Positions 47,623 to 63,833 are shown, counted from the first letter of the stretch. The stretch: DNA of 64,000 bases from Bacteroidota bacterium (GCA_018336075.1 JAGXRB010000261.1:221-64220), one strand, 5' to 3'. Numbers and translations: made by a program. The notes: a model not told the origin generated them from the letters alone.

Positions 47623-47658
47623 CTTGATTAAAATAGGTGTTATATAAAAAATAAATTG

Positions 47659-50600: not shown

Positions 50601-51303
50601 ACTTGGTAATGGTAGTCGAACTGCCTGGATGAATTTCTTCAGTTATAATTACCTTTTTAGAACAGACTATCTGATAAGTCCACCTTTAAATCTTGAAGGA
50701 ATGCAGAATGCATATATAAGTTTTGATTATGCCTATGCCCAAAAAAATAACAGGAAAGATTCATTGAGAGTCAGCGTTTCAACTGATTGTGGCATCACCT
50801 GGGAAAGGGTTTATTCAAATGGTCCTAACGGTCAGGGTATATTTGAAACCACATTTCCGACTACACTTTCATTTGTGCCGCAACAAATAGAAGATTGGTG
50901 CAGTGCCGGAACCTACGGAGCTCCTTGCCCGATTATAGATATCAGCCAGTATGCAGGTATCTCTGGTTTGAAAATTCGTTTTGAAGCCTATAATCATTTT
51001 GGAAACAATCTCTATTTGTCAAATATGCATGTTTCTCAACTTCTCGGAATCTTCCCTGAAGAGAAAACCTCTAGTGAGATGCAATTGTATCCAAATCCAG
51101 CAAGCTCGAATATCATAATCCGTGTACCGGATCAAGCTGTAGGCAGTGAAATTGTTTTTCGAGATATTCAAGGAATTATCCTTAAACGCTTTATTGTTAA
51201 TGCTTCTGAAACTGAAATCAGTACTGAAGGGTTTGTAAAAGGAATGTATTTTGTTGAAGTCAAACACAAATCTATAGCTCCAAAGAAGTTGATTATTCAT
51301 TAA
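47659..51303 (+). CDS. Large T9SS-secreted protein: BNR/sortilin-Vps10-like beta-propeller, two PKD-like domains, a jelly-roll module and a Por CTD
   Basis: About 1214 aa. It has multiple S.D.G.(S/T)W BNR-like motifs, PKD-like segments (..F.D.S.G.P..W.W.F.GG.P..S....P...Y...G.F.V.L.V.N..G) and a C-terminal YPNPASSNIIIRV...GMYFVEV...KKLIIH. Confidence 0.7.
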   Translation: MYKFNHLRIALLFAYILVFFNPFLALSQTNDTAVNPYWVEMMQNEKVNFFQTQRAFETYWEGREVTKGSGFKPFKRWEYMMSQRVSPDGTRPSPDREILAYNDFLQKYGKTRNLNGDWTALGPFTVPSGYNGYRGLGRLNAIAFHPSNPDIIYVGAPSGGLWVSYDHGTNWIVLTDHLPTLGISSIIIDYNNPSVLYIGTGDRDAGDAPGLGVWRSIDGGISWEPWSNGMGNVTVGRMVQHPVNSEIMLAATNAGVFRTNNGGLSWMLSRNGNFKEIVLKPDNPDVVYAAIGGTFYKSIDNGISFSAVSNGLPGGSRGVIGVSAANPEIVYFLLTNSDSFKGIYRSENAGESFTLRSNSPNIMAWDCNGGSGGQAWYDLDMAVDPANADVIYGGGVNCFKSSNGGLSWAIRSHWYGACGVQSVHADLHVLEYSPINNRLYAGNDGGLYWSDNGGVNWTEISNGLVISQAYKIGQSATNKDFVINGYQDNGTSVINESNWVAVGGGDGMECAYDPFDARYSYYTLYYGDVFRNFNNNSNGKIAGSQTNGITESGGWVTPFIIDHNDGNVMFIGFKNIWRSTNIKASPVGNVQWEKVSTMNTSNFNVLAQSYANTNIIYAASGNKLYFSENVKDLSVNWINRTGNLPAVNNITAIETHPTDENVVYIAQQTRIFKSIDKGVSWQEITANLSGIQINSIAYYKNSNEGLYLGTDIAVFYRDNSMSDWILFNNGLPASVKVTEVEIFYDPLSPEGDLIRAGTYGRGLWSSPPYLSTLAAAFSSSLVTVTAGCTVDFYDETLGIPQEWTWTFEGGNPAFSNERFPTGILYENEGVFDVHLIVTNALGSDTLVCSDCITVTAAAAPVANFEASKLIGCAGMVVELQDLSENCPSTWNWEFIPADVSFLNETSSYSKNPVVQFNQNTAYSVKLTVSNHVGDASKEMNDYILVGGYSMPYEQSFDVLTFGEIGWEVENPDGLKTWEIQTLGNGSRTAWMNFFSYNYLFRTDYLISPPLNLEGMQNAYISFDYAYAQKNNRKDSLRVSVSTDCGITWERVYSNGPNGQGIFETTFPTTLSFVPQQIEDWCSAGTYGAPCPIIDISQYAGISGLKIRFEAYNHFGNNLYLSNMHVSQLLGIFPEEKTSSEMQLYPNPASSNIIIRVPDQAVGSEIVFRDIQGIILKRFIVNASETEISTEGFVKGMYFVEVKHKSIAPKKLIIH

Positions 51304-51448
51304 AAATTAAAGGAAATCGACTTTTTTTAAAAAGGATTTTCCTGTAATTGAGTCCTGATTTATTTATTCTTTTCAAATGAACTCACGTGAAAAGCTGTTC
51401 ATGTGGTAAAACAATTGATAGCTTTTACCCGTCCTTTTAAACTAATGC

Positions 51449-51456
51449 TATATTTG
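51449..51456 (+). promoter_or_regulatory. -7 box TATATTTG upstream of the 968-aa gene
   Basis: TAnnTTTG match 24 nt upstream of the ATG at 51480. Confidence 0.45.
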
Positions 51457-51479
51457 CACTTTACATAAAGTTATAATAC

Positions 51480-54386
51480 ATGAAACTACGTTACCTTGTT
51501 CTGTTGGCAATCTTGCTGATCAAACAAATTTCTGTAATATCGCAAGAGGCTCAGCAAAAGCATCATAGAGGAGTTGCGGAAGCTTTTTCCGAAATTGAAT
51601 TCAAGGAAATAATTGCTGAAGAAGAAAGAAGTGGCGCGTATGAGCTTATGCGACTCAGAAAACCAAATCCGGTAATTTACAAGCCGGTTTTTGAAGTTGA
51701 GCCCGAAAAAATTCTCTATACAGGCTCCCAGCCTTCAGGTCAAAATAATACACAAATGATGAAAGAAGTCTCGCCTGCTCCTGATACAACTTTCATGGGA
51801 CTATACGATACTGGTAATTCTATTCCACCAGACGTGAATGGAGCTCCAGGACCTGATCATTTGATGGTTACGTTGAACACTCAGGTTAGAATTCAACACC
51901 GTGATGGAACAGAAATATCAACAGTTTCATTAGGTGTTTTCTGGGCGAGTTTGCCCGGTAGCGGAACTTTTGATCCAAAAATTCAATACGATTTTGAAGA
52001 TGACAGATGGGTTTTTGTGACTTGTGCCGGAAGCCAGCCAGGCAGCTCCCGGATTTATATGGGAGTTTCTGCAACCTCAGATCCAACCGGAACATGGTAC
52101 TTGTATTCATATATAGCAGACCCAGACAATATTGTTTGGTTTGATTATCCGAGCATGGGCTTCAATAAAAACTGGATTGTTGTTTCGGGTAATATGTTTG
52201 GTGGTGGTTTTTACAGTACCGTTTATGTATTCGATAAGCATGCAATGTATAACGGAGAAGCAACTCCTCAATTTGATCGCTTTACTACAACTCAGGGTTT
52301 TACACTTGTTCCTGCTGTTACATACGACGCTCAGGAAGAAAATGTTTATCTGATTTCTTCTGCTGATGGCAATCAGGGGGGCACGGGATATATCAGCTTG
52401 TTCAAAGTTAGTGGCGAAATCAATAATCCTGTGTTTTCCTTAACGGGCCATATAGGCATCCCACAGCCATGGGCTGGTTATGTCGGCAATAATGGCGACT
52501 TTTTGCCTCAGCTCGGCTCAAATGAAAAAATCAACGCAGTTGACCACAGAATGGAAAATGTTGTTTTTCGCAACAACAAGCTATGGGCAACACATCATGT
52601 TTTTCTGCCTGCAAACAATCCTCAAAGAGCTGCAATACAATGGTGGAATATCACTCCGACCGGCGAAATTATTCAACATGGACGGGTCGATGATCCAACA
52701 GGAGAGATGTCGTATGCATTTGCATCACTTGCCTTGAATCAATTTGAAGATATGTTAATCGGATTTAATATTTTCTCTGCCAACCAGTATGCAAGTGGTG
52801 GATATGCTTATCGTGCTCATTTTGACCCTCCTAACACTACGCGCGCCCCTTTTCAGTATATAGATGGTTTAGCACCTTACTACAAAACTTTTGGCAGTGG
52901 CCGAAATCGTTGGGGCGATTATTCAGCAACCATGCTTGATCCTGTTAACAGCGTTGATTTTTGGACCATTCAACAGTATGCAGAACTTCCTTCATCTGGT
53001 GACCGATGGGGAACATGGTGGGCCTATTTGCGTATTCCATTTGAGCCGGTTGCAGATTTTGCTGTAAACGAGACTTTGATACCTCTCGGAGAAAGCATCA
53101 ATTTTTCTGACAAGTCAATTGGAATCCCACAGGAATGGAGCTGGGTTTTTGAGGGCGGTACTCCGGATCAATCAACAGCGCAAAATCCGGCTGGAATTAC
53201 ATTTAACAATGAAGGTGTTTTCAATGTCAGTTTAACTGTTACGAATCAGTTTGGAACCAATACTGTCACCAAAAATTCTTTTATAACTGTAAGTTCAACC
53301 TTATTGCCTGAAGTTGCGTTTGTCGCAGACAGAAATTTGATTTGTACTGGTGAGCAGGTTAGTTTGTTTGACCAATCTCTTTATATGCCACGAGAGTGGG
53401 AGTGGGAGATTATTCCTTCTACCATATCATTTGTAAATGGTACTGACGCATTTTCCCAAAATCCACAGGTTGTTTTTCACGAGTACGGTGATTATACCGT
53501 TAAACTAACTACAGCTAATCTTAATGGAGAGGCTGATTTGACTGAATTTAATTTCATAAGAGTAGGAGGGAAAGATGTTCCTTTTGTTGAATATTTTGAG
53601 TCTGAATCTTTCAATGAAAATTATTGGACCATCGTAAATCCGGATAATAAAATGACATGGGAACTGACTCAGGTTGGTGGTTTGAATGAAACTACTGTCG
53701 CAGCTCAACTTGATTTCATGACCTATGTTGGTTCTGTTGGACAACGAGACCGTTTGATTACACCACCATTTGATTTAAGAGGTTATAGTCAGATGCAGCT
53801 TACTTTTAAACATGCACATGCGCGCAGAAGAACTGATGTTTCTGATTCATTAATTGTTTATATTTCAGACAACTGCGGTCAGTCCTGGACGCGTCTTTAT
53901 CAGAATGCTGATAATGGAAGCGGAAATTTTGCTACCCATCCATTGGTTGAAGGATTCCTTCCGGAAGTCCCAACAGACTGGTGTGGTGGAGGTTATGGTG
54001 CTGACTGTATCACTTTGGATATTAGTCCCTGGGCTGGTCAAACAGAAGTTAAGATCGCTTTTGAGTCTTTTAGTTTCAGAGGTAACCCACTCTATATCAC
54101 AGGAATCAGGGTAGGACCTACTGTTGGTTTGCAGACAAATGTCAATGAAAGATCAGCCTTTATCCTTTACCCTAATCCTGGCAAAGGTAAATTCACAGTT
54201 CGTTATTCTGAAATGATGAGATTCTCTGAAATTCGGTTATTCAATCTTTCGGGACAGGAAATAGCAATGTTTAGAAATGTCAATACCGGAGATGAAATAA
54301 ATCTGGAGAATCTGGCTTCAGGAGTGTATTTTATTCAGGCAAGGGCAGGAAGCAGCCCAGAATGGACTAAGCTGATAGTTGAATAG
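51480..54386 (+). CDS. Large T9SS-secreted protein: unknown N-terminal domain, two PKD-like domains, a jelly-roll module and a Por CTD
   Basis: 968 aa. The C-terminal ~450 aa are collinear with the C-terminal part of the 1215-aa neighbour. It ends YPNPGKGKFTVRY...GVYFIQA...KLIVE. Confidence 0.7.
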   Translation: MKLRYLVLLAILLIKQISVISQEAQQKHHRGVAEAFSEIEFKEIIAEEERSGAYELMRLRKPNPVIYKPVFEVEPEKILYTGSQPSGQNNTQMMKEVSPAPDTTFMGLYDTGNSIPPDVNGAPGPDHLMVTLNTQVRIQHRDGTEISTVSLGVFWASLPGSGTFDPKIQYDFEDDRWVFVTCAGSQPGSSRIYMGVSATSDPTGTWYLYSYIADPDNIVWFDYPSMGFNKNWIVVSGNMFGGGFYSTVYVFDKHAMYNGEATPQFDRFTTTQGFTLVPAVTYDAQEENVYLISSADGNQGGTGYISLFKVSGEINNPVFSLTGHIGIPQPWAGYVGNNGDFLPQLGSNEKINAVDHRMENVVFRNNKLWATHHVFLPANNPQRAAIQWWNITPTGEIIQHGRVDDPTGEMSYAFASLALNQFEDMLIGFNIFSANQYASGGYAYRAHFDPPNTTRAPFQYIDGLAPYYKTFGSGRNRWGDYSATMLDPVNSVDFWTIQQYAELPSSGDRWGTWWAYLRIPFEPVADFAVNETLIPLGESINFSDKSIGIPQEWSWVFEGGTPDQSTAQNPAGITFNNEGVFNVSLTVTNQFGTNTVTKNSFITVSSTLLPEVAFVADRNLICTGEQVSLFDQSLYMPREWEWEIIPSTISFVNGTDAFSQNPQVVFHEYGDYTVKLTTANLNGEADLTEFNFIRVGGKDVPFVEYFESESFNENYWTIVNPDNKMTWELTQVGGLNETTVAAQLDFMTYVGSVGQRDRLITPPFDLRGYSQMQLTFKHAHARRRTDVSDSLIVYISDNCGQSWTRLYQNADNGSGNFATHPLVEGFLPEVPTDWCGGGYGADCITLDISPWAGQTEVKIAFESFSFRGNPLYITGIRVGPTVGLQTNVNERSAFILYPNPGKGKFTVRYSEMMRFSEIRLFNLSGQEIAMFRNVNTGDEINLENLASGVYFIQARAGSSPEWTKLIVE

Positions 54387-55716: not shown

Positions 55717-55750
55717 TAAAAAAAACGCGCATTTCAATTTGAAATGCGCG
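55717..55750 (-). terminator. Stranded original terminator of tRNA-Arg (now separated from the tRNA by the island)
   Basis: A 12-bp palindrome CGCGCATTTCAA-t-TTGAAATGCGCG. On the minus strand it is followed by T8-9 and lies about 20 nt downstream of the attL tRNA-3'-end copy. Confidence 0.65.
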
Positions 55751-55768
55751 CATGTCTTGATTTTGAGA

Positions 55769-55782
55769 AGTGATCCGGACAG
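55769..55782. repeat. attL core: 14-bp direct repeat AGTGATCCGGACAG (displaced copy of the tRNA-Arg 3' end)
   Basis: Identical to 63758-63771. Confidence 0.85.
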
Positions 55783-55885
55783 TATCATAATAAATACACT
55801 TAACTTATTGATATACTGTTATTTTAGAAAAAAGTGGTATCACAAATGAACTTCGCAACATTTCTATAAATGACAGTATCACAAT
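55781..55885 (+). promoter_or_regulatory. Left-end cluster of putative integrase arm-type sites (GTATCA(C/T)AA)
   Basis: AGTATCATAA at 55781-55790, GGTATCACAAA at 55836-55846 and AGTATCACAAT at 55875-55885. All share one orientation with the right-end copies. Confidence 0.5.
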
Positions 55886-55902
55886 AGATTACACATAATT
55901 TC

Positions 55903-56397
55903 TTAAACTTTTGCAGTATCGCATAAATTGGCCTTATTCAAGGCATATTTAAGACTATTTGTCAAGTTTAAAATTGTTGCTGACTGCGATTTCAGTAATT
56001 CAATCAGTTCTTTTTCTCGTTCCGTCCAATTTTCATCTAGTTCCGATGAAAATACATTATTTGGAATGTCGGCTGAAATATGCAACCTCTTGTTCATTAG
56101 TGCATCAAATTGGTCAGGCATTTTATAGCCTTCCACGTCAATTTTATTCATTAGTTCATACTCCCTGATGTATGCCTGTATAACTTGTTCGGCTGCTGTC
56201 TCCTTCGTTTCGGCATAGAATTCATGAATTAATAAAGTTAATTCACAAAAGTGTGATCTGTTTTTTGAATCTGCAAGCATTTGCAATAATAGTGACATAG
56301 GTAACTTTACAAGTTCTTCCTTTGCTTTTTCAGGCTCCAGATTTAAATCCAGATTCCAGAATTGATCATACGCTTGATCTAATTTCGATTTTTCCAT
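55903..56397 (-). CDS. Hypothetical protein (island cargo, next to the array)
   Basis: 164-aa ORF, helical and acidic, with no family I recognise. A possible -7 box (plus strand CAAATGTA) lies at 56545-56552. Confidence 0.5.
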   Translation of the reverse strand: MEKSKLDQAYDQFWNLDLNLEPEKAKEELVKLPMSLLLQMLADSKNRSHFCELTLLIHEFYAETKETAAEQVIQAYIREYELMNKIDVEGYKMPDQFDALMNKRLHISADIPNNVFSSELDENWTEREKELIELLKSQSATILNLTNSLKYALNKANLCDTAKV

Positions 56398-56617
56398 GAT
56401 GTTTAGGTATTTGATAAAAGAAAATGCAGACCATCACCGCGTAACATTCTAGCAAGCATGAATGATGTAGTACTTTCAACTAATTGTGGTCTGCAAAGGT
56501 TTATCTTAACCATGCTTTTAGAAATATTAAAATGTTACGCACTGCAAATGTAAAAATATTCTTATTGCATTGTCAAGAAAAAAATGTGATACAAAAAAAG
56601 GTCTCCCTCTCGGAGGA

Positions 56618-57049
56618 GTTGTGCATGGCCTTAATTTTGGTGCAAGGCTCAACATGAAACTATAAAGGTTACGAGAGAATTTTGTTGTGCATGGCCTTAA
56701 TTTTGGTGCAAGGCTCAACAACCAGTCGAAATTTCGACCCGTTAACTTTGTTGTGCATGGCCTTAATTTTGGTGCAAGGCTCAACTAATTGGATGCTTCC
56801 TCGTGAGGAAGCAATGTTGTGCATGGCCTCAATTTTACTGTAAGGCTCAACACTGAGCCGAAATTTCGTCCCAGTAACATTGTTGTGCATGGTCTCAATT
56901 TTGCTGCAAGGCTCAATATATGTCCCTGAGTCGAGAATAAGGGAACTGTTGTGCATGGCCTCAATTTTGGTGCAAGGCTCAACATAAAGTCTCCCTCAAC
57001 TGAGGAGGACTTTGTTGTGCATGGCCTCAATATAGGTAAAGGAAATTTT
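56618..57049 (+). CRISPR. Cas-less CRISPR-like array: six good 36-bp repeats plus one half-degenerate repeat, with six 30-bp spacers
   Basis: Repeats of consensus GTTGTGCATGGCCTTAATTTTGGTGCAAGGCTCAAC start at 56618, 56684, 56750, 56816, 56882, 56948 and 57014, an exact 66-bp period. R1 to R3 are identical, R6 has 1 change, and R4 and R5 have 4 each. R7 matches only the first ~18 nt. Further decayed copies lie near 57060 and 57150. I infer the orientation from decay at the high-coordinate end. Confidence 0.65.
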
Positions 57050-57182
57050 TCCTAGACCTGTTTTACATGGCCATAATTCAAAGTCAATATGAGAAATCTA
57101 GCTCGAGTAAATGAATTGTAAATTTTGTGATGTGTAGCATCATTTCATTTAGAAAGGCTCTTACATGGCTTTATTTTAAGGC

Positions 57183-57214
57183 AAAAAAAAATCCGCTGAA
57201 ATTAATCAGCGGAT
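57183..57214 (-). terminator. Rho-independent terminator of the capsid operon
   Basis: ATCCGCTGA-aatta-TCAGCGGAT stem, followed on the minus strand by T8-9. It lies about 70 nt after the capsid stop. Confidence 0.75.
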
Positions 57215-57283
57215 CTTCTCACTTACCAAACGAGAAACTATAATTATCCCTAATTATAAAAAATGAAACAATGAAAAATCTCT

Positions 57284-58678
57284 TTATGCTGTATCTGGTT
57301 TCATGCCAGTAATTTTGGCGAAGTGACCCGGTTTCATCAATCCAATATCACCACGCCAAATGACGCGGATATATGTCTGATTCCGTTCAAATGCTTCACC
57401 TGATACACTGGATGCTTCCAATGTAACTGATTGACGTAAACCGATAACCACCTGTGAAAAATCCCCGATAATTCCGGAGCTTTCATTTTCTCCAACTCCC
57501 TGATTGGTCGGGAATGCTGTTGAATGTGTAAAGTTTACATCTTTCAAAAGTTCTGGCTTTGGAACAAATCCAAGATCGGTTGCCTGTGTCTGCAAAATAG
57601 CGAAATCACGCGGACTTAATGCCAGTAAATTTGCTGTTCCGCTGTTGTTGGCTACCTTTGTCCATGCAGAAACAACAGGTCTGTATGTGATGTAATCTGT
57701 TGAAAAATCTGTCATGGAGACTGATTCAACGCCCACCTGATTCATTATTCCTTTGGGCTCTGTTGTGCCTTGTCCCCAGATTGACAATCTGTCAAGCTCT
57801 GCGGCCAATGCTGCTGAAATCGCTGTATCAATCGCATTGGCTGCGTTTGGCGAATCTTGCAAAAGTTCATTGGAAATTTTAAGTAAACCACCAATTGTAA
57901 ACGAATTGAGCTCAACTCCATCAAATGTCATTCCATTATCACTGAACGCATCATTTTCGGCTTTTATCTCAATTGTTGGGTCTGTTGCAACTCTCGCTAG
58001 TGTGAGCTCTTTACCTTCCATGATAACCAATTGTGCACCACCACCAAATACAACTGATTTCGCACGACTTTTGTCAATCACTTGCGGAAACAATCTAACT
58101 GGAACCAATGTCCCGGTGCTAGTGGTGCTTAGTGCGGCTCTGGTCTCTGGTTCCACGCCTGCCCAATCTCCGGTAACAATACCGCGAATGATTTTCCCAA
58201 GTGTGCCGGAATTCGTTTTTTTATGTAAATCGCTGAAGTTATGCGAACGTTCCAAAACTTGTACAGGTTTTCCGGTTCTCCGGTCAATCCATTGTGATTC
58301 AGTTTCTGGATTTTTACCACCATATTGAGCTATAAAACTTTTTCCGGCCATTTCTAGTGCTCGTCTTTCGTCTTCTTCTAGCTCTTTAACTTTTATTGTC
58401 AGGTGATCGAATTCAGATTTCAGTCTGTCATATTCGACTGTTTCAGAATCTGTAAAATTACGTTTTTCTGCTTTTCGCTTTTGAATTAACAGATCCATTC
58501 TATCCCATGTTTGCGCCCTCAATTGCTTTGCTTCGTCTGAAGTTTCAATGTTAGCAATTATAGCGGGCACAATCAGTGCAAGTGATGTCAATGCTGAACC
58601 TTCAGCAAAAAAAGCGGCTGCCATTACTACCAAAAGTAGTGTTGCAAGTCCTAAAATGATTCTAAATGAAGTTTTCAT
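57284..58678 (-). CDS. Phage major capsid protein, HK97 family, with an N-terminal hydrophobic segment and a coiled-coil (scaffold-like) region
   Basis: ..KISNELLQDS.., ..AAELDRLSIWGQGTTEPKGI.. and the N-terminal ..NFTDSETVEYDRLKSEFDHLTIKVKELEE.. are hallmark HK97-MCP patterns. The track ORF starts at 58804 but overlaps the upstream gene, so I prefer the ATG at 58678 (MKTSFRII..). Confidence 0.85.
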   Translation of the reverse strand: MKTSFRIILGLATLLLVVMAAAFFAEGSALTSLALIVPAIIANIETSDEAKQLRAQTWDRMDLLIQKRKAEKRNFTDSETVEYDRLKSEFDHLTIKVKELEEDERRALEMAGKSFIAQYGGKNPETESQWIDRRTGKPVQVLERSHNFSDLHKKTNSGTLGKIIRGIVTGDWAGVEPETRAALSTTSTGTLVPVRLFPQVIDKSRAKSVVFGGGAQLVIMEGKELTLARVATDPTIEIKAENDAFSDNGMTFDGVELNSFTIGGLLKISNELLQDSPNAANAIDTAISAALAAELDRLSIWGQGTTEPKGIMNQVGVESVSMTDFSTDYITYRPVVSAWTKVANNSGTANLLALSPRDFAILQTQATDLGFVPKPELLKDVNFTHSTAFPTNQGVGENESSGIIGDFSQVVIGLRQSVTLEASSVSGEAFERNQTYIRVIWRGDIGLMKPGHFAKITGMKPDTA

Positions 58679-58697
58679 TTTCTTAGATTTAATTGAT

Positions 58698-59117
58698 TTA
58701 AAACTGGTTAACATATATTTGACGGAATAAATCTCCGGGAATGCGCACAATGTTTTTGATATTTTCAGTGTTGGGTTCCCCTGCGAAGACTGTTGTGTCT
58801 TCAAAAAATAGTCTGACTGAATCGAAAGTTATATCAACCCACAATAATTTGCGGATGTCGGTTTCTGGATTGCCGTCCGGCCTGTGACTTCTCAAATGTT
58901 GGGTGAGTGTGTCAAGAATCTCAATTGTTTCAAATCGCAACCCCTTTTTCATTTCGCTTTCACTACCGATGGGAGCGATGGCCGAGAAATACAATAAAGC
59001 TGCTGTATTGTAAGCACTGCTTTTTGATTTTGCAATCAGATCAATTTTTGATAGGAACGCCTGAACCTGATCAACACTTTCAAAGTGATTTTTCAGTAGG
59101 ATGATATTTTTTTCCAT
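58698..59117 (-). CDS. Hypothetical protein (first gene of the capsid operon)
   Basis: ORF 58698-59135. The -7 box overlaps the first codons, so I prefer the start MEKNIILL at 59117. No recognisable family. Confidence 0.5.
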   Translation of the reverse strand: MEKNIILLKNHFESVDQVQAFLSKIDLIAKSKSSAYNTAALLYFSAIAPIGSESEMKKGLRFETIEILDTLTQHLRSHRPDGNPETDIRKLLWVDITFDSVRLFFEDTTVFAGEPNTENIKNIVRIPGDLFRQIYVNQF

Positions 59118-59132
59118 GACTTCAATTTTTGG

Positions 59133-59140
59133 CAAAGCTA
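59133..59140 (-). promoter_or_regulatory. -7 box TAGCTTTG for the 145-aa/capsid operon
   Basis: The plus strand reads CAAAGCTA. Confidence 0.4.
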
Positions 59141-59180
59141 TGTCAGGAAAAAAAAAGTAGGTATAACAATGTTATACTTT

Positions 59181-59609
59181 TTAGGCTAAATTTTTTAATT
59201 CATAACTGTGTCGACTATTCCAACTGATATAATCAGTGTATTTACTTTTTTTGAAATGCAATCTATAAATGCTATCCAGATAGTAGAATGCATCAACTTT
59301 TTTCATTCCTTTTTCACGGAGCAAATTGATATAAGTTCCCCAGTTCAATGAGCTTTCATTTAATGAAATTAAAATATCCGGGACATATGTTTCTCCGGCT
59401 TCTTTTAAATTTTGTAGTTCTGATAAAACTTCCTCTTCTGCTTCTGATAAATTACTCAAAATTGCATATGCGTACACATGGCTAGGCGAACGCTTAGTGC
59501 TGGAAAGGTTGTCAGGATTGACCCTCCCCCCCCTTATTGGGCTCTTTTTAGCTTTTAATGTGCTGTCTTTCAATTTCTTAGGTGCTTTTGTTTGTATGTT
59601 TGTTTCCAT
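59181..59609 (-). CDS. Hypothetical basic protein containing a G8 homopolymer tract
   Basis: 142-aa ORF with a K/R-rich N-terminus. A C8 run on the plus strand at 59526-59533 lies in codons for ..IRGGRV... Confidence 0.5.
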   Translation of the reverse strand: METNIQTKAPKKLKDSTLKAKKSPIRGGRVNPDNLSSTKRSPSHVYAYAILSNLSEAEEEVLSELQNLKEAGETYVPDILISLNESSLNWGTYINLLREKGMKKVDAFYYLDSIYRLHFKKSKYTDYISWNSRHSYELKNLA

Positions 59610-59668
59610 TGTCTTGTTAATAGGTTGATTTATAATAATTTGGCAATTTTTTATTCTATGAACTAATG

Positions 59669-60622
59669 TTATGATAGGTTATGAACTTCAAGTAAATTCG
59701 ATAAAACTGATTCTATTTTGGAGCTTTTAAGATACTCGTCTTCTGAATGAGTTAAATATAGTTTAGTGATGTTCGGGCTGGTATGCCGGAGAAACAACTG
59801 GACTTTAAAAATGTCATTTGTGGCTTTCAGTGCTGCGATTGCTGCGCCATGTCTTAAGCTGTGCGCACTTATTTTTGGATGCTTCAATCCTGCTGACTTC
59901 AATCTGTTGTTAACTATGTTCCCAATCTCTGGTGCTGACAATGCTTTTGCTTCTCCGTCCCTTATCCAATGACTTCTAAACAATGGCTCCGATGGGTTCA
60001 ATGTTTCATCTTTGCCAATTGTTAAACGCCTGGTCTCAATCAATTCTTTCAACGCCTGGTCAATGCTATCGGATATGGTGACGGCCTCCTTCACTTGCTG
60101 ACCTTTGCCGAGTATGTAAAGTAATGGCCGGCCTGACCTGTCAGTCTGAAAATCTGAAATCCTTAACCTTGAAACTTCAATGGCTCGTAATCCATTTTCA
60201 AACATCAATTGAATAATAACTTTATCTCTGGTTCCGGCAAATGTACTTCCATCAATTGACCTGATTAGCTGTGATACTTCTTCTGGTTTCAATGGGAGTT
60301 TGCTATATTGCTTTGGAATTTTGACGGGCCGGATGCCTGCTGTGATGTTTTTATAAATGTCATTCGCTTCCGTCCATTTGTAAAATCCTTTCACTCCCGA
60401 CAAATAACTATTGGCGGTGTAAATGCTTTTTTTGCTGATAAGAAATTCTTTAAATCTAATGATGTCGCGTTCGTTCGGAGTGCTGGCTGGCCGTCCAACA
60501 ATCACCAGATATTTGAAAAATTGGTGTAATGCATTCTCAATTGCCTTGCGGCTTTTGTCGTTAATGTCCTTTTGATCTGTGAAATCAGAAATTAACTGTG
60601 TGATCGTTCGGGCTGAATTCAT
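59669..60622 (-). CDS. Tyrosine recombinase, XerC/XerD-like (phage integrase family)
   Basis: 317 aa with an N-terminal SAM-like domain. The catalytic region reads ..GLRAIEVSRL.. (Arg I), ..HSLRHGAAIA.. (H-x-x-R) and ..LRHTSPNITKLYL (His/Tyr). Confidence 0.85.
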   Translation of the reverse strand: MNSARTITQLISDFTDQKDINDKSRKAIENALHQFFKYLVIVGRPASTPNERDIIRFKEFLISKKSIYTANSYLSGVKGFYKWTEANDIYKNITAGIRPVKIPKQYSKLPLKPEEVSQLIRSIDGSTFAGTRDKVIIQLMFENGLRAIEVSRLRISDFQTDRSGRPLLYILGKGQQVKEAVTISDSIDQALKELIETRRLTIGKDETLNPSEPLFRSHWIRDGEAKALSAPEIGNIVNNRLKSAGLKHPKISAHSLRHGAAIAALKATNDIFKVQLFLRHTSPNITKLYLTHSEDEYLKSSKIESVLSNLLEVHNLS

Positions 60623-61185
60623 TGTGTTAATGCTTTGGTGTTATCATAAGAAGTTGTCAAAAGTTTTATGTTCGTATCTGGATAGTATTTTTCTGAATTC
60701 AATTTCTTGAATTTTTCTTCAAAATCGATTTTGGAAAAATAAATATCAGAACGATTACAATATCTTTCCAAATAATCAAATACTTCATCAAGTGGATTTA
60801 CTAAACCTGCAAATTTTCTGTGCGTTTTTTTTCTTTCAAATGGTTTTACCATGTCATTAAACCATTTAAGATTGATCTGTTGTCCATAAAGTTTTTCATC
60901 AAAATTATGTTGGCCATTTATTACTTTCAGTAATGCCTTCTCATAATTATCAACTGTGATATGTCCAATTGTTTTTTTCAGGTTTGATAAGAAAAAACTT
61001 CTTGCTGGAAAATCTTTTGTGTCGGTCGGAATGTTTGATGCTCCCCAGCCCATTAAAATTGCTGTTTTTGAAATCATTTTTGCAAAATCTCCGTTTGAAA
61101 TTTCGGCAATTGTGGTCGGAAAAATTATTTTTCCCGGAATGCTTTTAATAGGCCACTCAATGTAAGGTTTAATTTCTTGTTCCAT
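60619..61185 (-). CDS. Hypothetical protein
   Basis: 188-aa ORF that overlaps the recombinase gene by 4 bp (translational coupling). No recognisable family. Confidence 0.5.
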   Translation of the reverse strand: MEQEIKPYIEWPIKSIPGKIIFPTTIAEISNGDFAKMISKTAILMGWGASNIPTDTKDFPARSFFLSNLKKTIGHITVDNYEKALLKVINGQHNFDEKLYGQQINLKWFNDMVKPFERKKTHRKFAGLVNPLDEVFDYLERYCNRSDIYFSKIDFEEKFKKLNSEKYYPDTNIKLLTTSYDNTKALTQ

Positions 61186-61196
61186 ATTGAAAGAAT

Positions 61197-61913
61197 TTAA
61201 AATGATTTTGAAAATTCTTCTTGCGCTTTATGATTAGCTTCCTGTTTCGATTTTGCCGCGATGTATGAATTTTTTGGAGTAGTAAGGCTTTTAGTATAGT
61301 TTTCGATTTTATTTTTATCTGTAAACCATATTTTTCTCATTTTAAGTTTCCAGTTTTTAACTGGATTATCTTTACTATCAATCCAATTACGATCGTTATA
61401 CCAATCATAAGCGATTTTTGCAGCTTCTTCATGATATCCATTATCAAGAAAAAATTTAATAACTTCAGAAAATTGCGGAGCTACTAGAATAGAATTATTA
61501 TTACTTGTATCATTCAAAATACTTGTACTATTATCCTCGAAGTTTTTTTCTATACCCCCCCCGAAATTTTTTTCTATACCCCCCTCGAAGTTTTTTTCTA
61601 TACCCCTCCCGAAGTTTTTTTCTATACCCCCCTCAGTTAAATAGATATTTCTTCTTGCGATTACCTTGCTGTTGTTCTGATATTCATTTTCTGTTTCGAT
61701 GTAACCATACTTCACTAATTGAGCTATCCAGTTAGTGATGCTTCGCTCGCTTACGTTGTAAAGTTTTGCGAAATACTTATTTGATGCAAAACACCTTTTT
61801 TCTTTATTTGATAGTGCTGTGATCTCTCCGTAAAAAAGTTTGACGTTCGGAGTTAAATTTTCATCATAGCGAACTTTTGCCGGGATGATGGCATAATAAT
61901 TTGGACTTTCCAT
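61197..61913 (-). CDS. HTH-domain replication-organiser-like protein (DnaD/phage Rep N-terminal type) with an internal GGIEKNF x4 repeat
   Basis: The N-terminus YYAIIPAKVRYDENLTPNVKLFYGEITALSNKEKRCFASNKYFAKLYNVSERSITNWIAQLVKYGYI resembles winged-HTH phage/plasmid replication proteins. The functional assignment is inferential. Confidence 0.55.
   Translation of the reverse strand: MESPNYYAIIPAKVRYDENLTPNVKLFYGEITALSNKEKRCFASNKYFAKLYNVSERSITNWIAQLVKYGYIETENEYQNNSKVIARRNIYLTEGGIEKNFGRGIEKNFEGGIEKNFGGGIEKNFEDNSTSILNDTSNNNSILVAPQFSEVIKFFLDNGYHEEAAKIAYDWYNDRNWIDSKDNPVKNWKLKMRKIWFTDKNKIENYTKSLTTPKNSYIAAKSKQEANHKAQEEFSKSF
61537..61632. repeat. Four tandem 24-bp direct repeats (candidate iterons/origin) inside the rep-like gene
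   Basis: The four 24-bp units are 61537-61560, 61561-61584, 61585-61608 and 61609-61632. Consensus (T/C)CGAAGTTTTTTTCTATACCCCCC, with 1 to 2 changes per unit. Confidence 0.8.
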
Positions 61914-61980
61914 ATCTTTGATTTTTGATTTTTGAATTATACCCGATGCATGACTAAATGCACCGGGTTTTTTATTCTCC

Positions 61981-62160
61981 TTAAAGCAAGTTCATCTTTT
62001 CTGCTTTCTTTTTCCAGAAACGTTCTCTGATTGCTTTTACCTTTTCAGGATTTTTTTCACGCCATTCTTTATTGTACGCACGTTGTACTTTTTTTACCAA
62101 CGCATCAATGGTTTCAGCGTCCATCTCTTTTTTCTTCTTGAATTTCTTAAAAATGTCCAT
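61981..62160 (-). CDS. Small basic hypothetical protein (59 aa; below the ORF-track cutoff)
   Basis: My translation reads MDIFKKFKKKKEMDAETIDALVKKVQRAYNKEWREKNPEKVKAIRERFWKKKAEKMNLL. It sits at the head of the rep operon. Whether it is coding is uncertain. Confidence 0.35.
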   Translation of the reverse strand: MDIFKKFKKKKEMDAETIDALVKKVQRAYNKEWREKNPEKVKAIRERFWKKKAEKMNLL

Positions 62161-62347
62161 CTTATTAGGTTTTTTGGGTTAATAAATCAATGTAAGAGTA
62201 AACAATCGTTTTTGTTTTGTCAAGGTGACAATGTCCGGAATCGTATACATTTATTTTGTTCTAACTCAATACTGATAAGGCTTTCAGCGTTGTTGAAAAG
62301 TGTTGATAACTTTTGTTTTGTCCCCTCGAAAATGGCAATTTTGGAGC

Positions 62348-62385
62348 AAAAAAAAATCCCATTGGGACGCCAATGGGATTTTTTA
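62348..62385 (-). terminator. Rho-independent terminator after the integrase gene
   Basis: AATCCCATTGG-gacg-CCAATGGGATT stem, with a T-run on the minus strand (A9 on the plus strand). Confidence 0.75.
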
Positions 62386-62409
62386 AACTTAGTTAAATTC
62401 TGAGTGAGC

Positions 62410-63558
62410 TCAGATTTTTGTAATACCCAATCGGTCGTAATCGTTGCTTATTTTTGAAGATAACATTTGAGCATATATCCGGGTCGTTTTTACACTGGCA
62501 TGGCCTAGTGTATGACTTACCGTCTCCAATGGCAATCCAGCGTTTAGCATTTGAGTTGCGAATGTGTGCCTTGCAAGGTGCGTTGTCAATGTTTTTGGGA
62601 TGTCGCAAATGATTTCAAGCTCCTTTAGAAAGGCATTCATTTTTTGATTAGAAATTATGTTAAAGACCTTTGAATTGTTGTCCCTGTACTTTTCAATAAT
62701 TTGCAGTGCTTCTTCCAGAAGTGGAACCATTGTTTTTTCTTGCGTTTTTTCTCGTGATCTTATAATGAAAGGTCTGCCGTCAATATTTCTTATTTCATCT
62801 CTTTTCAAGTTTAACAAATCACCGAAAGCCAATCCGCTGTTAATTTGAAATATGAACATGTCGCGGACTTGCTCCAGTCTTTGAATTCCTTTGTAATCTC
62901 GTAAACGTTGGATTTCATCAACTGTTAGAAAATCAATGTTACTTTTTGCTTTTGGTAGCTTAAAATTGTCATAAGGTGTTTTTTTAATCATATCAGTATT
63001 AACAGCCCTGCGCAAATATTTTATAAGTACCTTATGATTTTTCAGCGTTGTACTTGCTTTCATTGTCTTTAATAAATGAGAATGAAATCGATGTAAGTAG
63101 TTAAGGTTGAAATCTTGAATTTTTACATGCTTGTCGAATGCTTCAAAATTATTCAAAACAGAGTTAACAGCTCTTATCTGTCCGGCTCCTAGCGTTGGTT
63201 TATCAATCTCAAATTGCTGTCTCATATATTCGGCCAATGATGTGTTACGGCCTAGCTGGTCTCCGTCCATAAATAATTTTAAACTTTCCGGAGACGGTGT
63301 TATCTGGTAGCGGAAACAATCCAGATTGAATTCTTCAATTTTTCGGAGCTCTGCTTCAATCATAAAATTGTATTGAATAGCTCTGTTGTGTTGACGTGTA
63401 ACGCGTTTTTTCTTATCGTCCCAGTGCTCTTTTTCTATTTTAAATGGGAGGTTTCTCCATATCCTGGTATTACGATCAAAATAGATTTCAATACTAACCG
63501 GAGCAGATTTTCCGCTGATTGCTGTTTTTTTTCTGTCATAAATTACTTTACTTTCCAT
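62410..63558 (-). CDS. int: Site-specific tyrosine integrase (Bacteroidota type with an N-terminal arm-binding domain)
   Basis: The C-terminus reads ..HLARHTFATQMLNAGLPLETVSHTLGHASVKTTRIYA (H-x-x-R ... H ... Y). The track ORF starts at 63591. I prefer MESKVIYDRKK at 63558 because a -7 box lies at 63579-63586. Confidence 0.9.
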   Translation of the reverse strand: MESKVIYDRKKTAISGKSAPVSIEIYFDRNTRIWRNLPFKIEKEHWDDKKKRVTRQHNRAIQYNFMIEAELRKIEEFNLDCFRYQITPSPESLKLFMDGDQLGRNTSLAEYMRQQFEIDKPTLGAGQIRAVNSVLNNFEAFDKHVKIQDFNLNYLHRFHSHLLKTMKASTTLKNHKVLIKYLRRAVNTDMIKKTPYDNFKLPKAKSNIDFLTVDEIQRLRDYKGIQRLEQVRDMFIFQINSGLAFGDLLNLKRDEIRNIDGRPFIIRSREKTQEKTMVPLLEEALQIIEKYRDNNSKVFNIISNQKMNAFLKELEIICDIPKTLTTHLARHTFATQMLNAGLPLETVSHTLGHASVKTTRIYAQMLSSKISNDYDRLGITKI

Positions 63559-63571
63559 GCTTTTATTGTTT

Positions 63572-63625
63572 GGTATCACAAAACTAGTCAAAATTAAAGA
63601 AAAGTATCACAAAAAGTATCACAAA
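63572..63625 (+). promoter_or_regulatory. Right-end cluster of putative arm-type sites (GTATCACAAA x3) overlapping the integrase promoter
   Basis: GGTATCACAAA at 63572-63582, AGTATCACAAA at 63603-63613 and AGTATCACAAA at 63615-63625. A -7 box (plus strand CAAAACTA, i.e. TAGTTTTG) lies at 63579-63586. Confidence 0.5.
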
Positions 63626-63729
63626 TTTTACAAATTGGTTTGTTTTTTTTCAGGTTACACCATAATGTAAAATAACACTAGAAGTGGTGTTTTGTAGTAC
63701 GGGCGCGGGTTTCAGTAAATTTTAGGCAT

Positions 63730-63753
63730 AAAAAAACCCCTCGTGTGAGGGGT
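63730..63753 (-). terminator. Island-borne terminator now serving tRNA-Arg
   Basis: ACCCCTC-gtgt-GAGGGGT stem, followed on the minus strand by T7. It begins about 7 nt after the tRNA 3' end and lies inside the element. Confidence 0.65.
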
Positions 63754-63757
63754 TGTC

Positions 63758-63771
63758 AGTGATCCGGACAG
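63758..63771. repeat. attR core: 14-bp direct repeat AGTGATCCGGACAG overlapping the tRNA-Arg 3' end
   Basis: Identical to 55769-55782. Confidence 0.85.
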
Positions 63772-63833
63772 GATTCGAACCTGTGGCCCGCAGCTTAGAA
63801 GGCTGCTGCTCTATCCAACTGAGCTACCGGACC
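63760..63833 (-). tRNA. tRNA-Arg (anticodon UCU)
   Basis: I folded the 74-nt cloverleaf by hand. Acceptor GGTCCGG/CCGGATC, D arm GCTC..GAGC, anticodon arm GCAGC-CTTCTAA-GCTGC, T arm ACAGG-TTCGAAT-CCTGT, discriminator A. CCA is not encoded. Confidence 0.92.

What the first reader, a model, noticed from the sequence alone, without database searches (positions are those of the whole stretch)
55769..63771. An 8.0-kb integrative element in the 3' end of tRNA-Arg(UCU) with satellite-like gene content
AGTGATCCGGACAG occurs at 55769-55782 and again at 63758-63771. The right copy forms the 3' end of the intact tRNA. A tyrosine integrase lies immediately inside attR, and every ORF between the repeats is on the minus strand. 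The content is an integrase, a 59-aa basic ORF, an HTH Rep-like gene with iterons, a 188-aa unknown, a XerD-like recombinase, three further unknowns (142, 145 and 164 aa), one HK97 capsid gene and a CRISPR-like array. There is no terminase, portal, protease, tail or lysis gene. This is too small and incomplete for a phage, but it is organised in intact operons with promoters and terminators. It therefore looks more like a helper-dependent satellite (PICI/P4-like logic) than random prophage debris. Such satellites are poorly described in Bacteroidota.
Basis: partly seen in the sequence, partly recalled or inferred. Interest (0 to 1): 0.65.

Follow-up and report, generated by a model that had tools for sequence, protein, structure and literature searches.

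The report
Capsid-carrying integrative element in tRNA-Arg
An 8-kb mobile element sits in a tRNA gene of an uncultured Bacteroidales bacterium; it has its own integrase, replication gene and one phage capsid gene but no other virion genes, so it probably borrows the rest of a virus particle from a helper phage, and this copy also carries a small CRISPR-like array of the RNA-targeting (Cas13b) type.

Summary
A 14-bp direct repeat (55769-55782 and 63758-63771) brackets 8.0 kb at the 3' end of tRNA-Arg(UCU).

It is not prophage debris. At least seven related copies exist in metagenomes. One of them (L005) lies in the same tRNA of a related Bacteroidales genome, has its own 15-bp att repeat and the same gene order, and its proteins are only 30-53% identical (ORF188 78%).

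No terminase, portal, protease, tail or lysis gene was detected. The only virion gene is an HK97 capsid gene with a scaffold-like delta domain. Helper-dependent encapsidation is therefore the best reading, but it is inferred: no helper phage, excised circle or empty site was found.

The element fails the tested definitions of PICI, cfPICI and P4-like satellites. The closest analogues are the capsid homologue Ccm of SaPIbov5 and the capsid-only pCD630 plasmids.

The array matches all four published Cas13b array traits: 36-nt repeat, GUUG/CAAC ends, U-rich loop and 30-nt spacers. However, no cas gene lies in the window, no target was found, and four of six spacers are hairpins. Its role is unresolved.

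I rate it a new variant of a known kind, of moderate to high interest.

The parts
55725..55751 (-). Chromosomal terminator just outside attL. In an empty site it would directly follow the tRNA.
   Evidence: 12-bp stem followed by a T-run. Conserved next to the L005 att site.
55769..55782 (.). attL core, a 14-bp direct repeat.
   Evidence: The same core (CTGTCCGGATCACT) lies within the 15-bp att repeat of L005.
55781..55884 (+). Three copies of AGTATCACAA (at most 1 mismatch). Candidate arm-type integrase sites on the left arm.
   Evidence: The integrase has an Arm-DNA-bind_5 domain. That these are binding sites is inferred.
55903..56397 (-). ORF164, acidic, no family match. Accessory gene.
   Evidence: 36% identical to the 107-aa ORF of L005. 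dN/dS 0.20.
56547..56576 (-). Promoter-like site for ORF164 (TTGACA ... TACATTTG), followed by a conserved 5' leader (56418-56553).
   Evidence: The same arrangement occurs in L005.
56595..56618 (-). Hairpin plus T7 (terminator-like on the minus strand), abutting the first repeat. It resembles spacer 6.
56618..57049 (+). CRISPR-like array. Six 36-nt repeats (GTTGTGCATGGCCTTAATTTTGGTGCAAGGCTCAAC) start at 56618, 56684, 56750, 56816, 56882 and 56948. A degenerate seventh starts at 57014. There are six 30-nt spacers.
   Evidence: The traits match the Cas13b array description. The strand is inferred from the U-rich loop, the degenerate right-end repeat and the left-end unit polymorphism.
57187..57215 (-). 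Intrinsic terminator after the capsid gene.
   Evidence: Read from the sequence: GATCCGCTGATTAATTTCAGCGGATC followed by T9 on the minus strand.
57284..58678 (-). HK97-type major capsid protein, 464 aa. It has an N-terminal hydrophobic stretch (about residues 5-45), then a coiled-coil delta domain, then the shell domain.
58698..59117 (-). ORF139, a family-specific protein directly upstream of the capsid gene. Confident AlphaFold2 model with no known fold match.
   Evidence: A promoter-like TAGCTTTG starts at 59140 and runs down to 59133 on the minus strand.
59181..59609 (-). ORF142: basic, disordered N-terminus and a helical C-terminal half. Family-specific.
59669..60622 (-). Second tyrosine recombinase (Xer-like), with all catalytic motifs present.
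   Evidence: The motifs were read from the translation. It is syntenic with the capsid module in L005, L088, L090 and L093.
60619..61185 (-). ORF188, whose stop codon overlaps the start codon of the second recombinase. An orphan family.
61197..61913 (-). Replication initiator (HTH_36; lambda-O / DnaD-like), with four 24-bp iterons at 61535-61634 inside the gene.
61981..62160 (-). 59-aa basic protein (phrog_14214). Possibly a regulator or excision factor.
   Evidence: The function is inferred only.
62351..62384 (.). Perfect 15-bp inverted repeat. Terminator-like, placed after the integrase gene.
62410..63558 (-). Tyrosine integrase, 382 aa.
63572..63624 (+). Three copies of AGTATCACAA. Candidate arm-type sites on the right arm.
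63735..63754 (-). Terminator carried by the element, directly after the restored tRNA 3' end.
   Evidence: L005 has an equivalent hairpin.
63758..63771 (.). attR core, overlapping the tRNA 3' end.
63759..63833 (-). tRNA-Arg(UCU), intact.
   Evidence: (71.2 bits).

Best explanation
This is a member of a small, undescribed family of about 8-kb integrative elements of Bacteroidales.

Shown:
- The element lies in the 3' end of tRNA-Arg(UCU), between 14-bp att cores.
- It carries a tyrosine integrase with an arm-binding domain.
- It carries a lambda-O/DnaD-like initiator whose iterons lie inside its own gene.
- It carries a second Xer-like recombinase.
- It carries one HK97 capsid gene with a delta domain and no other recognisable virion gene.

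Inferred (how it works):
1. After induction the element excises and replicates from its own origin.
2. Its capsid protein assembles with, or in place of, a helper phage's capsid protein. It uses the helper's portal, protease, terminase and tail, which would make particles able to carry 8 kb. This resembles the capsid homologue Ccm of SaPIbov5.
3. The second recombinase most plausibly resolves or circularises multimeric or terminally redundant DNA.

This copy alone has gained a mini CRISPR array of Cas13b (VI-B) type between the capsid terminator and the ORF164 promoter. The array would need a host Cas13b. Whether it guides interference or acts as a decoy is open.
For: Boundaries:
- The att cores and the tRNA are confirmed.
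- Six of the nine AGTATCACAA-like sites in the 64-kb window lie within 190 bp of the two ends, all in one orientation.
- The element supplies a replacement terminator for the tRNA.

A real, evolving family:
- L005 has the same tRNA, its own 15-bp att repeat and the same flanking gene (flanks 87-90% nt identical).
- L005 has the same gene order. Protein identities are: integrase 44%, ORF59 44%, ORF188 78%, second recombinase 46%, ORF142 30%, ORF139 46%, capsid 53%, ORF164 36%.
- The L005 Rep is a non-homologous protein with the same function.
- L088/L089, L090, L092 and L093 share the block second recombinase - ORF142 - ORF139 - capsid.
- dN/dS is 0.27 for the capsid gene, 0.32 for the second recombinase and 0.20 for ORF164.

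Incomplete as a virus:
- No terminase, portal, protease, tail or lysis family matched.
- The capsid protein matches the whole TIGR01554 model, delta domain included. In HK97 and phi12, by established knowledge and PMC8569155, that domain is removed by a phage protease, and the element has none.

Precedents:
- Ccm is a satellite-encoded HK97 capsid homologue with a delta domain. It cannot assemble alone.
- The 7.9-kb pCD630 plasmids carry a capsid gene but no terminase or portal. Their capsid protein is the best plasmid match to this one (29% identity; tblastn E 9e-24; pairwise BLASTP E 7e-37).
- A plasmid that the authors assign to the plasmid classes described by Smits 2018 and Roseboom 2023 was found inducible and particle-protected.

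Array:
- 36-nt repeats, GUUG/CAAC ends, a U-rich loop, 30-nt spacers and a 66-nt unit match the Cas13b array description.
- The terminal repeat is degenerate.
- The ENA copy lacks exactly the two left-end units while the 9200 nt of left flank compared are identical.
Against: - No helper phage was identified.
- There is no evidence of excision or of packaged copies. The capsid gene, ORF188, the second recombinase and the repeat have no relative in IMG/VR.
- No empty attB was found.
- No small terminase, pac/cos site, repressor or anti-repressor was recognised.
- ORF139 folds confidently but matches nothing in PDB or BFVD, and the ORF142 model is unusable. So the proteins next to the capsid gene give no mechanistic support.
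- The capsid protein has a conserved N-terminal hydrophobic stretch, which is not expected for a shell protein.
- For the array: no cas gene lies in the 64-kb window. The repeat is absent from all three collections scanned. No protospacer was found. Four of six spacers are significant hairpins.
Confidence: 0.55

Rival explanations
1. An integrative, plasmid-like replicon whose capsid gene is not used for its own transfer. The capsid protein would interfere with infecting phages, for example by poisoning capsid assembly. Alternatively, its membrane-anchored delta domain would be released by a phage protease. On this reading the element is a small defence island that spreads by other means.
For: - Rep with iterons plus a Xer-like resolvase is a plasmid-type maintenance set.
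- The capsid N-terminus is hydrophobic in the window protein and four of its five closest relatives (the fifth, P0004, lacks the stretch), and in none of the distant phage capsid proteins.
- The pCD630 authors report poor expression of the phage genes.
- No packaging gene or site was found.
Against: - No match to any PADLOC defence model.
- Interference and piracy go together in known satellites.
- The whole capsid shell domain is conserved under purifying selection (dN/dS 0.27).
- No alternative transfer function such as a relaxase was detected.
Confidence: 0.2
2. A decaying remnant of a larger prophage that happens to retain an integrase and a capsid gene.
For: HK97 capsid genes normally sit in full head modules. 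More distant relatives do: L006 has tail genes, and L091 has a protease and a portal.
Against: - The same 8-kb architecture, with precise att ends, recurs at 30-53% protein identity.
- No ORF is a fragment of a larger phage family.
- dN/dS is below 1.
- Promoter-like and terminator-like sites bracket the operons.
Confidence: 0.04
3. The array is an RNA decoy (a Racr-like anti-CRISPR) or a regulatory crRNA-like set, not a set of targeting guides. Repeat mimics joined to self-folded, non-targeting 'spacers' would load the host Cas13b and titrate it. That would protect the element and/or its helper.
For: - Four of six spacers fold with z of -2.9 to -3.7; 0-4 of 200 shuffles do as well.
- Spacers 2 and 4 differ at 8 positions, 6 of them in three symmetric pairs, two of which are compensatory (P about 0.01).
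- No target was found anywhere.
- The first repeat is predicted to fold on its own, not with the leader.
- A non-targeting Cas13b crRNA over-expressed in trans raised plaque counts about 1000-fold (PMC13187072).
- Racrs and viral crRNA-like RNAs are known.
Against: - Known Racrs are mostly single repeat units.
- The host's CRISPR type is unknown.
- The unit gain or loss at one end also fits ordinary adaptation or deletion.
- Missing targets are common for environmental spacers.
Confidence: 0.2
4. The array is not CRISPR-related. It would be a structured tandem repeat with a DNA-level role, for example a site array for the second recombinase, a packaging site or an origin.
For: - The repeat was found nowhere else.
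- No Rfam CRISPR-DR family matched.
- On the minus strand the array is bracketed by terminators.
- The unit number varies between assemblies.
Against: - All four specific VI-B traits are met at once, in a Bacteroidota host.
- The last repeat is degenerate, which is typical of CRISPR arrays.
- The array is absent from L005, L088 and L090, whose copies cover this position. It therefore cannot be a core cis-site of the family.
Confidence: 0.12

Closest known systems
cos-type SaPIs (SaPIbov5) and their capsid homologue Ccm
   Same: An integrative satellite whose only shell gene is an HK97 capsid homologue with a delta domain. All other virion parts come from the helper (PMC8569155).
   Different: No sequence relationship was tested or seen beyond the shared fold family. 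Here there is no recognisable Stl-type repressor, cos site, HNH or small terminase. The host phylum differs, the element is smaller (8 kb versus a size I recall as about 14 kb), and it has an extra Xer-like recombinase and a hydrophobic capsid N-terminus.
pCD630-family plasmids of Clostridioides difficile
   Same: About 7.9-kb replicons with a single HK97 capsid gene and no terminase or portal. Their capsid protein is the closest plasmid-borne relative (29% identity). The authors of PMC10993401 assign a particle-protected plasmid to the same plasmid classes.
   Different: They are circular plasmids with a helicase replication module and an HNH endonuclease. They have no integrase and no tRNA site. 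No other listed gene function is shared (only the capsid proteins were compared directly).
Capsid-forming PICIs (cfPICI)
   Same: Satellites that encode their own capsid protein and lack tail and lysis genes.
   Different: cfPICIs have 11 core components, including head-tail adaptor and connector, a large terminase and a small terminase, and they are told apart by a portal component. None of these is present here.
Marine VEIMEs (virion-encapsidated integrative mobile elements)
   Same: Small (from under 5 to 16.8 kb) integrase-bearing elements, found in several phyla including Flavobacteria.
   Different: VEIMEs encode no major capsid gene and are packaged as concatemers in full-size helper capsids.
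NBU-type integrative mobilisable elements of Bacteroidota (from my own knowledge)
   Same: About 10 kb, with a Bacteroidota-type tyrosine integrase and integration into the 3' end of a tRNA gene through a short identical core.
   Different: NBUs carry a relaxase and oriT and move by conjugation. Here no relaxase is detectable and a capsid gene is present.
Viral CRISPR mini-arrays and RNA anti-CRISPRs (Racr)
   Same: A CRISPR array without cas genes, carried by a mobile element that depends on the host's effector.
   Different: The described cases are in viruses and plasmids. The review notes that plasmids carry every type except VI and does not mention satellites. This array is of VI-B type, has six spacers, and its spacers are structured.

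Membership tests
tRNA-integrating tyrosine-recombinase genomic island | A direct repeat duplicating the tRNA 3' end at both borders, with the integrase next to the tRNA | tested here: met
   The same holds in L005.
tRNA-integrating tyrosine-recombinase genomic island | Empty attB in related genomes, or a circular attP junction | tested here: inconclusive
   The predicted empty-site pattern was not found in JGI metagenomes. The nearest GTDB genome (L008) has unrelated DNA at this position. No reads were available.
PICI (as used by SatelliteFinder, PMC10085698) | Small terminase homologue (one of the PICI core components) | tested here: not met
   No match in Pfam, PHROGs or NCBIfam.
PICI (as used by SatelliteFinder, PMC10085698) | Integrase plus a replication module; no tail or holin | tested here: met
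   The Rep is of lambda-O/DnaD type, not a primase.
PICI (as used by SatelliteFinder, PMC10085698) | AlpA/Stl/MerR-type regulator | tested here: not met
   No match. The 59-aa ORF matches only phrog_14214, of unknown function.
cfPICI | Capsid gene | tested here: met
   PF05065 and TIGR01554.
cfPICI | Portal, head-tail adaptor and connector, large and small terminase; prohead protease | tested here: not met
   None detected.
P4-like satellites | Psu, Delta, Sid, alpha, epsilon and AlpA, as named | tested here: not met
   No match for any of them in Pfam, PHROGs or NCBIfam; only an integrase is shared. SatelliteFinder's own profiles were not run.
Ccm-type capsid redirection (works-like test) | Satellite-encoded HK97 capsid homologue with a delta domain, and no other head gene | tested here: met
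Ccm-type capsid redirection (works-like test) | A helper phage with a related capsid protein; mixed small capsids | not testable with these tools
   No helper is known. The nearest cultured-phage capsid protein is 25.5% identical, from a Burkholderia phage.
Type VI-B (Cas13b) CRISPR array | 36-nt repeat with 5'-GUUG and CAAC-3' ends and a U-rich open loop | tested here: met
   compared with the descriptions.
Type VI-B (Cas13b) CRISPR array | 30-nt spacers, 66-nt unit | tested here: met
   All six spacers are 30 nt and the period is exactly 66.
Type VI-B (Cas13b) CRISPR array | cas13b (with or without csx27/csx28) adjacent to the array or elsewhere in the genome | tested here: not met
   Not met within the window. 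The only ORFs of at least 1000 aa are a 1215-aa gene called as a Por_Secre_tail secreted protein and an unannotated 1001-aa ORF at 6883-9888; window ORFs outside the element were not scanned for cas families. The rest of the genome could not be searched.
Type VI-B (Cas13b) CRISPR array | Spacers matching phage or mobile-element transcripts | tested here: not met
Racr / solitary repeat unit | The repeat is identical to that of the host's own CRISPR-Cas system | not testable with these tools
   The host genome lies outside the window, and the repeat is absent from the GTDB representatives.
NBU-type mobilisable element | Relaxase (Mob) and oriT | tested here: not met
   No relaxase family matched.
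pCD630-family plasmids | Helicase-containing replication module | tested here: not met
   No helicase in the element. pCD630 gene list.

The most novel reading that the evidence does not exclude
A previously unseen class of minimal 'capsid-only' satellites of Bacteroidales. Two features would set it apart. First, the capsid protein carries a membrane-anchoring N-terminus in front of its scaffold domain. Second, one member has armed itself with an array of Cas13b repeat mimics joined to self-folded, non-targeting spacers. That would be an RNA anti-CRISPR against a type VI system, carried by a satellite to protect itself and its helper.
Probability: 0.15. Interest if true: 0.85.

Novelty: new variant of a known kind. 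Interest (0 to 1): 0.6.

Why it matters
- The SatelliteFinder survey found most satellites in Proteobacteria and Firmicutes and does not mention Bacteroidota at all. A defined satellite-like family in Bacteroidales, with clear ends and a conserved gene order, would give a starting point for finding helpers and measuring satellite-driven gene flow in that phylum.
- An element with only a capsid gene sits between classical satellites, which have no capsid gene, and capsid-forming PICIs, which have a full head module. Together with pCD630 it suggests that 'capsid-only' small replicons recur across phyla.
- A Cas13b-type array on such an element, with hairpin spacers, makes a concrete question testable: do mobile elements use or disarm RNA-targeting CRISPR systems through RNA alone?

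Tried and rejected
Searches that found nothing:
- The repeat was scanned in IMG/VR, in the GTDB genomes and, as a periodic pattern, in JGI metagenomes. All gave zero matches.
- The predicted empty attB was scanned in JGI metagenomes, with zero matches.
- A search for the flanking gene in GTDB genomes found the nearest relative, L008 (85% aa). Homology stops about 77 bp before the gene start, and there is no tRNA, so L008 is neither an empty nor an occupied site.
- Close relatives of the capsid gene, ORF188 and the second recombinase were sought in IMG/VR. None was found.
- Spacers were compared with the window, all fetched loci, INPHARED, PLSDB and IMG/VR. Matches were at chance level only.
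- Rfam at E <= 1 found only the tRNA and sub-threshold noise.
- PADLOC gave no credible defence hit.

Structure work:
- ORF139 gave a good model (pLDDT 88) but no match in PDB or BFVD; the best E-values were 0.76 and 0.33.
- The ORF142 model was too poor to search (pLDDT 53), and its profile hit nothing in PDB sequences.

Ideas considered and dropped:
- Integron attC reading of the repeat ends. GCTCAAC fits RYYYAAC, but GTTGTGC does not fit GTTRRRY, and the 'cassettes' would be only 22 bp.
- Protein-coding reading of the array. Only three short overlapping ORFs in different frames cross it.
- Charybdis elements. They are unrelated.
- Two Cas13b repeat sequences recalled from memory could not be verified in the paper library. 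I did not use them as evidence.

Full report
OBSERVATION

The 14-mer AGTGATCCGGACAG occurs exactly twice in the 64-kb window, at 55769-55782 and 63758-63771. None of 100 dinucleotide-preserving shuffles gave two matches. ARAGORN and Rfam find a single tRNA-Arg(TCT) on the minus strand at 63759/63760-63833. The right-hand copy is therefore the last 13 nt of the tRNA plus one base.

All nine real genes between the repeats are on the minus strand. Pfam, PHROGs and NCBIfam identify them as follows.
- A tyrosine integrase with Arm-DNA-bind_5, SAM_5 and catalytic domains.
- A 59-aa basic protein (phrog_14214, function unknown).
- An HTH_36 / lambda-O / DnaD-like replication initiator. Four 24-bp iterons lie inside its own coding sequence (61535-61634).
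- ORF188, with no family match.
- A Xer-like second recombinase.
- ORF142, ORF145 and ORF164, with no family match.
- An HK97 major capsid protein (PF05065 5e-24). TIGR01554 matches at 2.8e-33 over model positions 2-384 of 385, which includes the N-terminal delta domain.

Nothing matches a terminase, portal, prohead protease, tail or lysis family.

Gene calls on public copies of the same DNA correct three starts. The capsid gene is 57284-58678 (464 aa), ORF145 is 139 aa (58698-59117), and the integrase is 382 aa (62410-63558).

ENDS AND REGULATORY ANATOMY

The motif AGTATCACAA (at most one mismatch) occurs nine times in the window. Six of these lie in two clusters, 55781-55884 and 63572-63624, all in one orientation. 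Together with the integrase's arm-binding domain, this is what arm-type sites on both arms of an att site look like. That they are binding sites is inference.

A hairpin with a T-run follows the restored tRNA end inside the element (63754-63735). A second one lies just outside attL (55751-55725).

Motifs of the Bacteroidota -7 promoter type (TAnnTTTG; consensus from my own knowledge) lie on the minus strand upstream of the integrase, of ORF139 and the capsid gene, of ORF164 and of the tRNA. Terminator-like hairpins follow the integrase and the capsid gene.

IT IS A FAMILY, NOT DEBRIS

The capsid protein has only ten relatives at E <= 1e-5 among 5.8 billion clustered proteins. ORF188 and ORF142 each have one cluster besides the window's own. 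ORF139 has six representatives among 1.84 billion.

The contexts of these relatives are informative.

L005 is an 8.7-kb contig of NCBI assembly GCA_036681025.1. It carries tRNA-Arg(TCT), a 15-bp att repeat (CCTGTCCGGATCACT at 148 and 7832) that contains the same core, and the same flanking chromosomal gene. Its flanks are 87-90% identical in nucleotides to the window's. It has the same gene order. Protein identities to the window are: integrase 44%, ORF59 44%, ORF188 78%, second recombinase 46%, ORF142 30%, ORF139 46%, capsid 53%, ORF164 36%.

The L005 Rep is not homologous by BLAST, but it is again a replication initiator by PHROGs. This is a swap between modules of the same function.

L088/L089, L090, L092 and L093 are shorter contigs. 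They show the same block: second recombinase - about 140 aa - about 145 aa - capsid - small ORF.

dN/dS between the window and L005 is 0.27 for the capsid gene, 0.32 for the second recombinase, 0.20 for ORF164 and 0.55-0.59 for ORF142 and ORF188. Synonymous sites are saturated for the integrase, ORF59 and ORF139.

The ORF188 tract has dS of only 0.25, against 0.72 for the host flank and more than 1.2 for its neighbours. It was therefore exchanged recently between elements.

The relative sits in the same tRNA with att repeats, and the unknown ORFs are full-length, conserved proteins rather than fragments.

More distant capsid relatives sit in ordinary phage contexts. L006 has tail genes, and L091 has an S78 protease and a portal. 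L007 is another small island with an integrase and a capsid gene.

WHAT WAS NOT FOUND

There is no close relative of the capsid gene, ORF188, the second recombinase or the repeat in IMG/VR. No empty attB was found in JGI metagenomes. The nearest GTDB genome (L008, a Bacteroidales MAG; flank gene 85% aa) has unrelated DNA where the tRNA should be. Excision, packaging and a helper are therefore not shown.

MECHANISM

The element can integrate, and it can very probably replicate, because it has an initiator with internal iterons. Its one virion gene needs partners. An HK97-type protein with a delta domain depends on a portal, a maturation protease and a terminase, and the element has none of these.

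The best-supported reading is helper-dependent encapsidation. The satellite's capsid protein would build or redirect shells suited to 8 kb.

The closest documented mechanism is Ccm of SaPIbov5. Ccm is a satellite-encoded homologue (24% identical) of the helper's capsid protein. It has its own delta domain, is cleaved, occupies the pentamers of T=4 shells, and cannot assemble alone (PMC8569155).

A second parallel comes from Clostridioides difficile. The best plasmid-borne match to this capsid protein is that of the 7.9-kb pCD630 family (29% identity; tblastn E 9e-24, pairwise BLASTP E 7e-37). This is a better match than any cultured phage in INPHARED (25.5% identity, E 3e-14).

Those plasmids also have a capsid gene but no terminase or portal (10.1101/198473). 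A plasmid that the authors assign to the plasmid classes described by Smits 2018 and Roseboom 2023 was recovered as an inducible, particle-protected element (PMC10993401).

The second recombinase is conserved alongside the capsid module. I infer that it resolves or circularises multimeric or terminally redundant DNA.

ORF139 gives a confident AlphaFold2 model (pLDDT 88, pTM 0.85), but no PDB or BFVD match. The ORF142 model is unusable. These two proteins therefore remain unassigned.

One oddity bears on the mechanism. The capsid proteins of this family have a conserved hydrophobic N-terminus, seen in the window protein and four of its five closest relatives (the fifth, P0004, lacks it). The Kyte-Doolittle 19-residue maximum is 2.73 at residues 7-25. 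The stretch is absent from the distant phage relatives.

THE ARRAY

Six 36-nt repeats (GTTGTGCATGGCCTTAATTTTGGTGCAAGGCTCAAC) and a degenerate seventh alternate with six spacers of exactly 30 nt.

On the + strand the repeat has 5'-GUUG and CAAC-3' ends that pair, and a U-rich loop. Smargon et al. describe Cas13b arrays in exactly these terms: 36 nt, GUUG/CAAC, poly-U in the open loop, 30-nt spacers and a 66-nt crRNA (10.1101/092577). A later study repeats the description for other Bacteroidetes systems.

The array is an insertion. L005 has capsid gene - terminator - TTGACA...TACATTTG promoter - last ORF. The window has the array, and a second hairpin with T7, between the capsid terminator and the same promoter. 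No other family member has the repeat.

The ENA assembly of the same element lacks exactly the two left-hand units, while the 9200 nt of left flank compared are identical. That is either loss or polarised gain of units at the putative leader end.

Several things argue against a plain guide array.
- No cas gene lies in the window.
- The repeat occurs nowhere else.
- No target was found.
- Four of six spacers fold far better than shuffled versions (z of -2.9 to -3.7).
- Spacers 2 and 4 are 22/30 identical. Six of their eight differences fall in three symmetric pairs, and two of these pairs are compensatory (P about 0.01).
- The sequence just before repeat 1 resembles spacer 6.

A non-targeting Cas13b crRNA expressed in trans can titrate Cas13b and raise plaque counts about 1000-fold (PMC13187072). 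RNA anti-CRISPRs and viral mini-arrays are known. A decoy role is therefore plausible but untested.

COMPARISON AND NOVELTY

The element fails the tested component definitions of PICI, cfPICI and P4-like satellites. It differs from marine VEIMEs, which lack capsid genes. It differs from NBU-type elements, which have a relaxase (own knowledge).

It works most like a Ccm-type satellite and most resembles pCD630 in content, but it belongs to neither group.

The SatelliteFinder survey never mentions Bacteroidota. A review of CRISPR on mobile elements mentions neither satellites nor type VI on such elements.

I rate it a new variant of a known kind, with interest 0.6.

My confidence levels are:
- about 0.95 that it is an active-type integrative element family;
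- about 0.55 that it is a helper-dependent satellite;
- about 0.65 that the array derives from a VI-B CRISPR system.

Noticed in passing
window 57284-58678 (capsid protein residues about 5-45): The capsid proteins of this family carry a conserved hydrophobic, signal-peptide-like or transmembrane-like N-terminus in front of the coiled-coil delta domain. It is seen in the window protein and four of its five closest relatives. Distant phage relatives lack it.
   Followed up: partly
window 56618-56749, compared with L001: The ENA assembly of the same element lacks exactly repeat1-spacer1-repeat2-spacer2, while the 9200 nt of left flank compared are identical. This is either a unit gain/loss polymorphism or an assembly collapse at the three identical repeats.
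   Followed up: partly
window 56720-56749 and 56852-56881: Spacers 2 and 4 are 22/30 identical. Their differences fall mostly in symmetric, partly compensatory positions of a hairpin.
   Followed up: yes
window 60580-61254, compared with L005 3093-3776: An 83% nucleotide-identity tract covers ORF188 and its edges, inside otherwise highly diverged elements. Its dS is 0.25, against 0.72 for the host flank. This points to recent recombination between elements in different hosts.
   Followed up: partly
L005 3734-4674: The second recombinase of L005 is called as a 31-aa piece plus a 275-aa piece. This is either a frameshift, a pseudogene or an assembly error at its N-terminus.
   Followed up: no
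L005 1729-2120: A 159-bp tandem repeat (2.5 copies, 89% matches) lies upstream of the different Rep gene of L005. It probably represents that element's iterons or origin, and it overlaps a called 137-aa ORF.
   Followed up: no
L007 2071-8056: A distant, high-GC locus holds a Xer-like integrase, a primase-like protein, a 24%-identical HK97 capsid gene and otherwise unannotated small ORFs. A tRNA-Asn lies 3.5 kb further on. It may be another lineage of capsid-only islands. No att repeat was found.
   Followed up: partly
window 56632, 56698, 56764 (+ strand): Repeats 1-3 each contain TAATTTTG, which fits the Bacteroidota -7 promoter motif TAnnTTTG. Repeats 4-7 have CAATTTTG or further changes.
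   Followed up: no
window 57063-57090 and 57158-57185: Further decayed repeat-like stretches (TTTTACATGGCCATAATTC... and CTCTTACATGGCTTTATTTTAAGGC) lie between the array and the capsid terminator. The array may once have been longer.
   Followed up: no
window 47656-54386: Two very large secreted proteins (1215 and 968 aa) with PKD/BNR domains and type-IX secretion (Por_Secre_tail) C-termini flank the island region. This is ordinary Bacteroidota chromosome.
   Followed up: no
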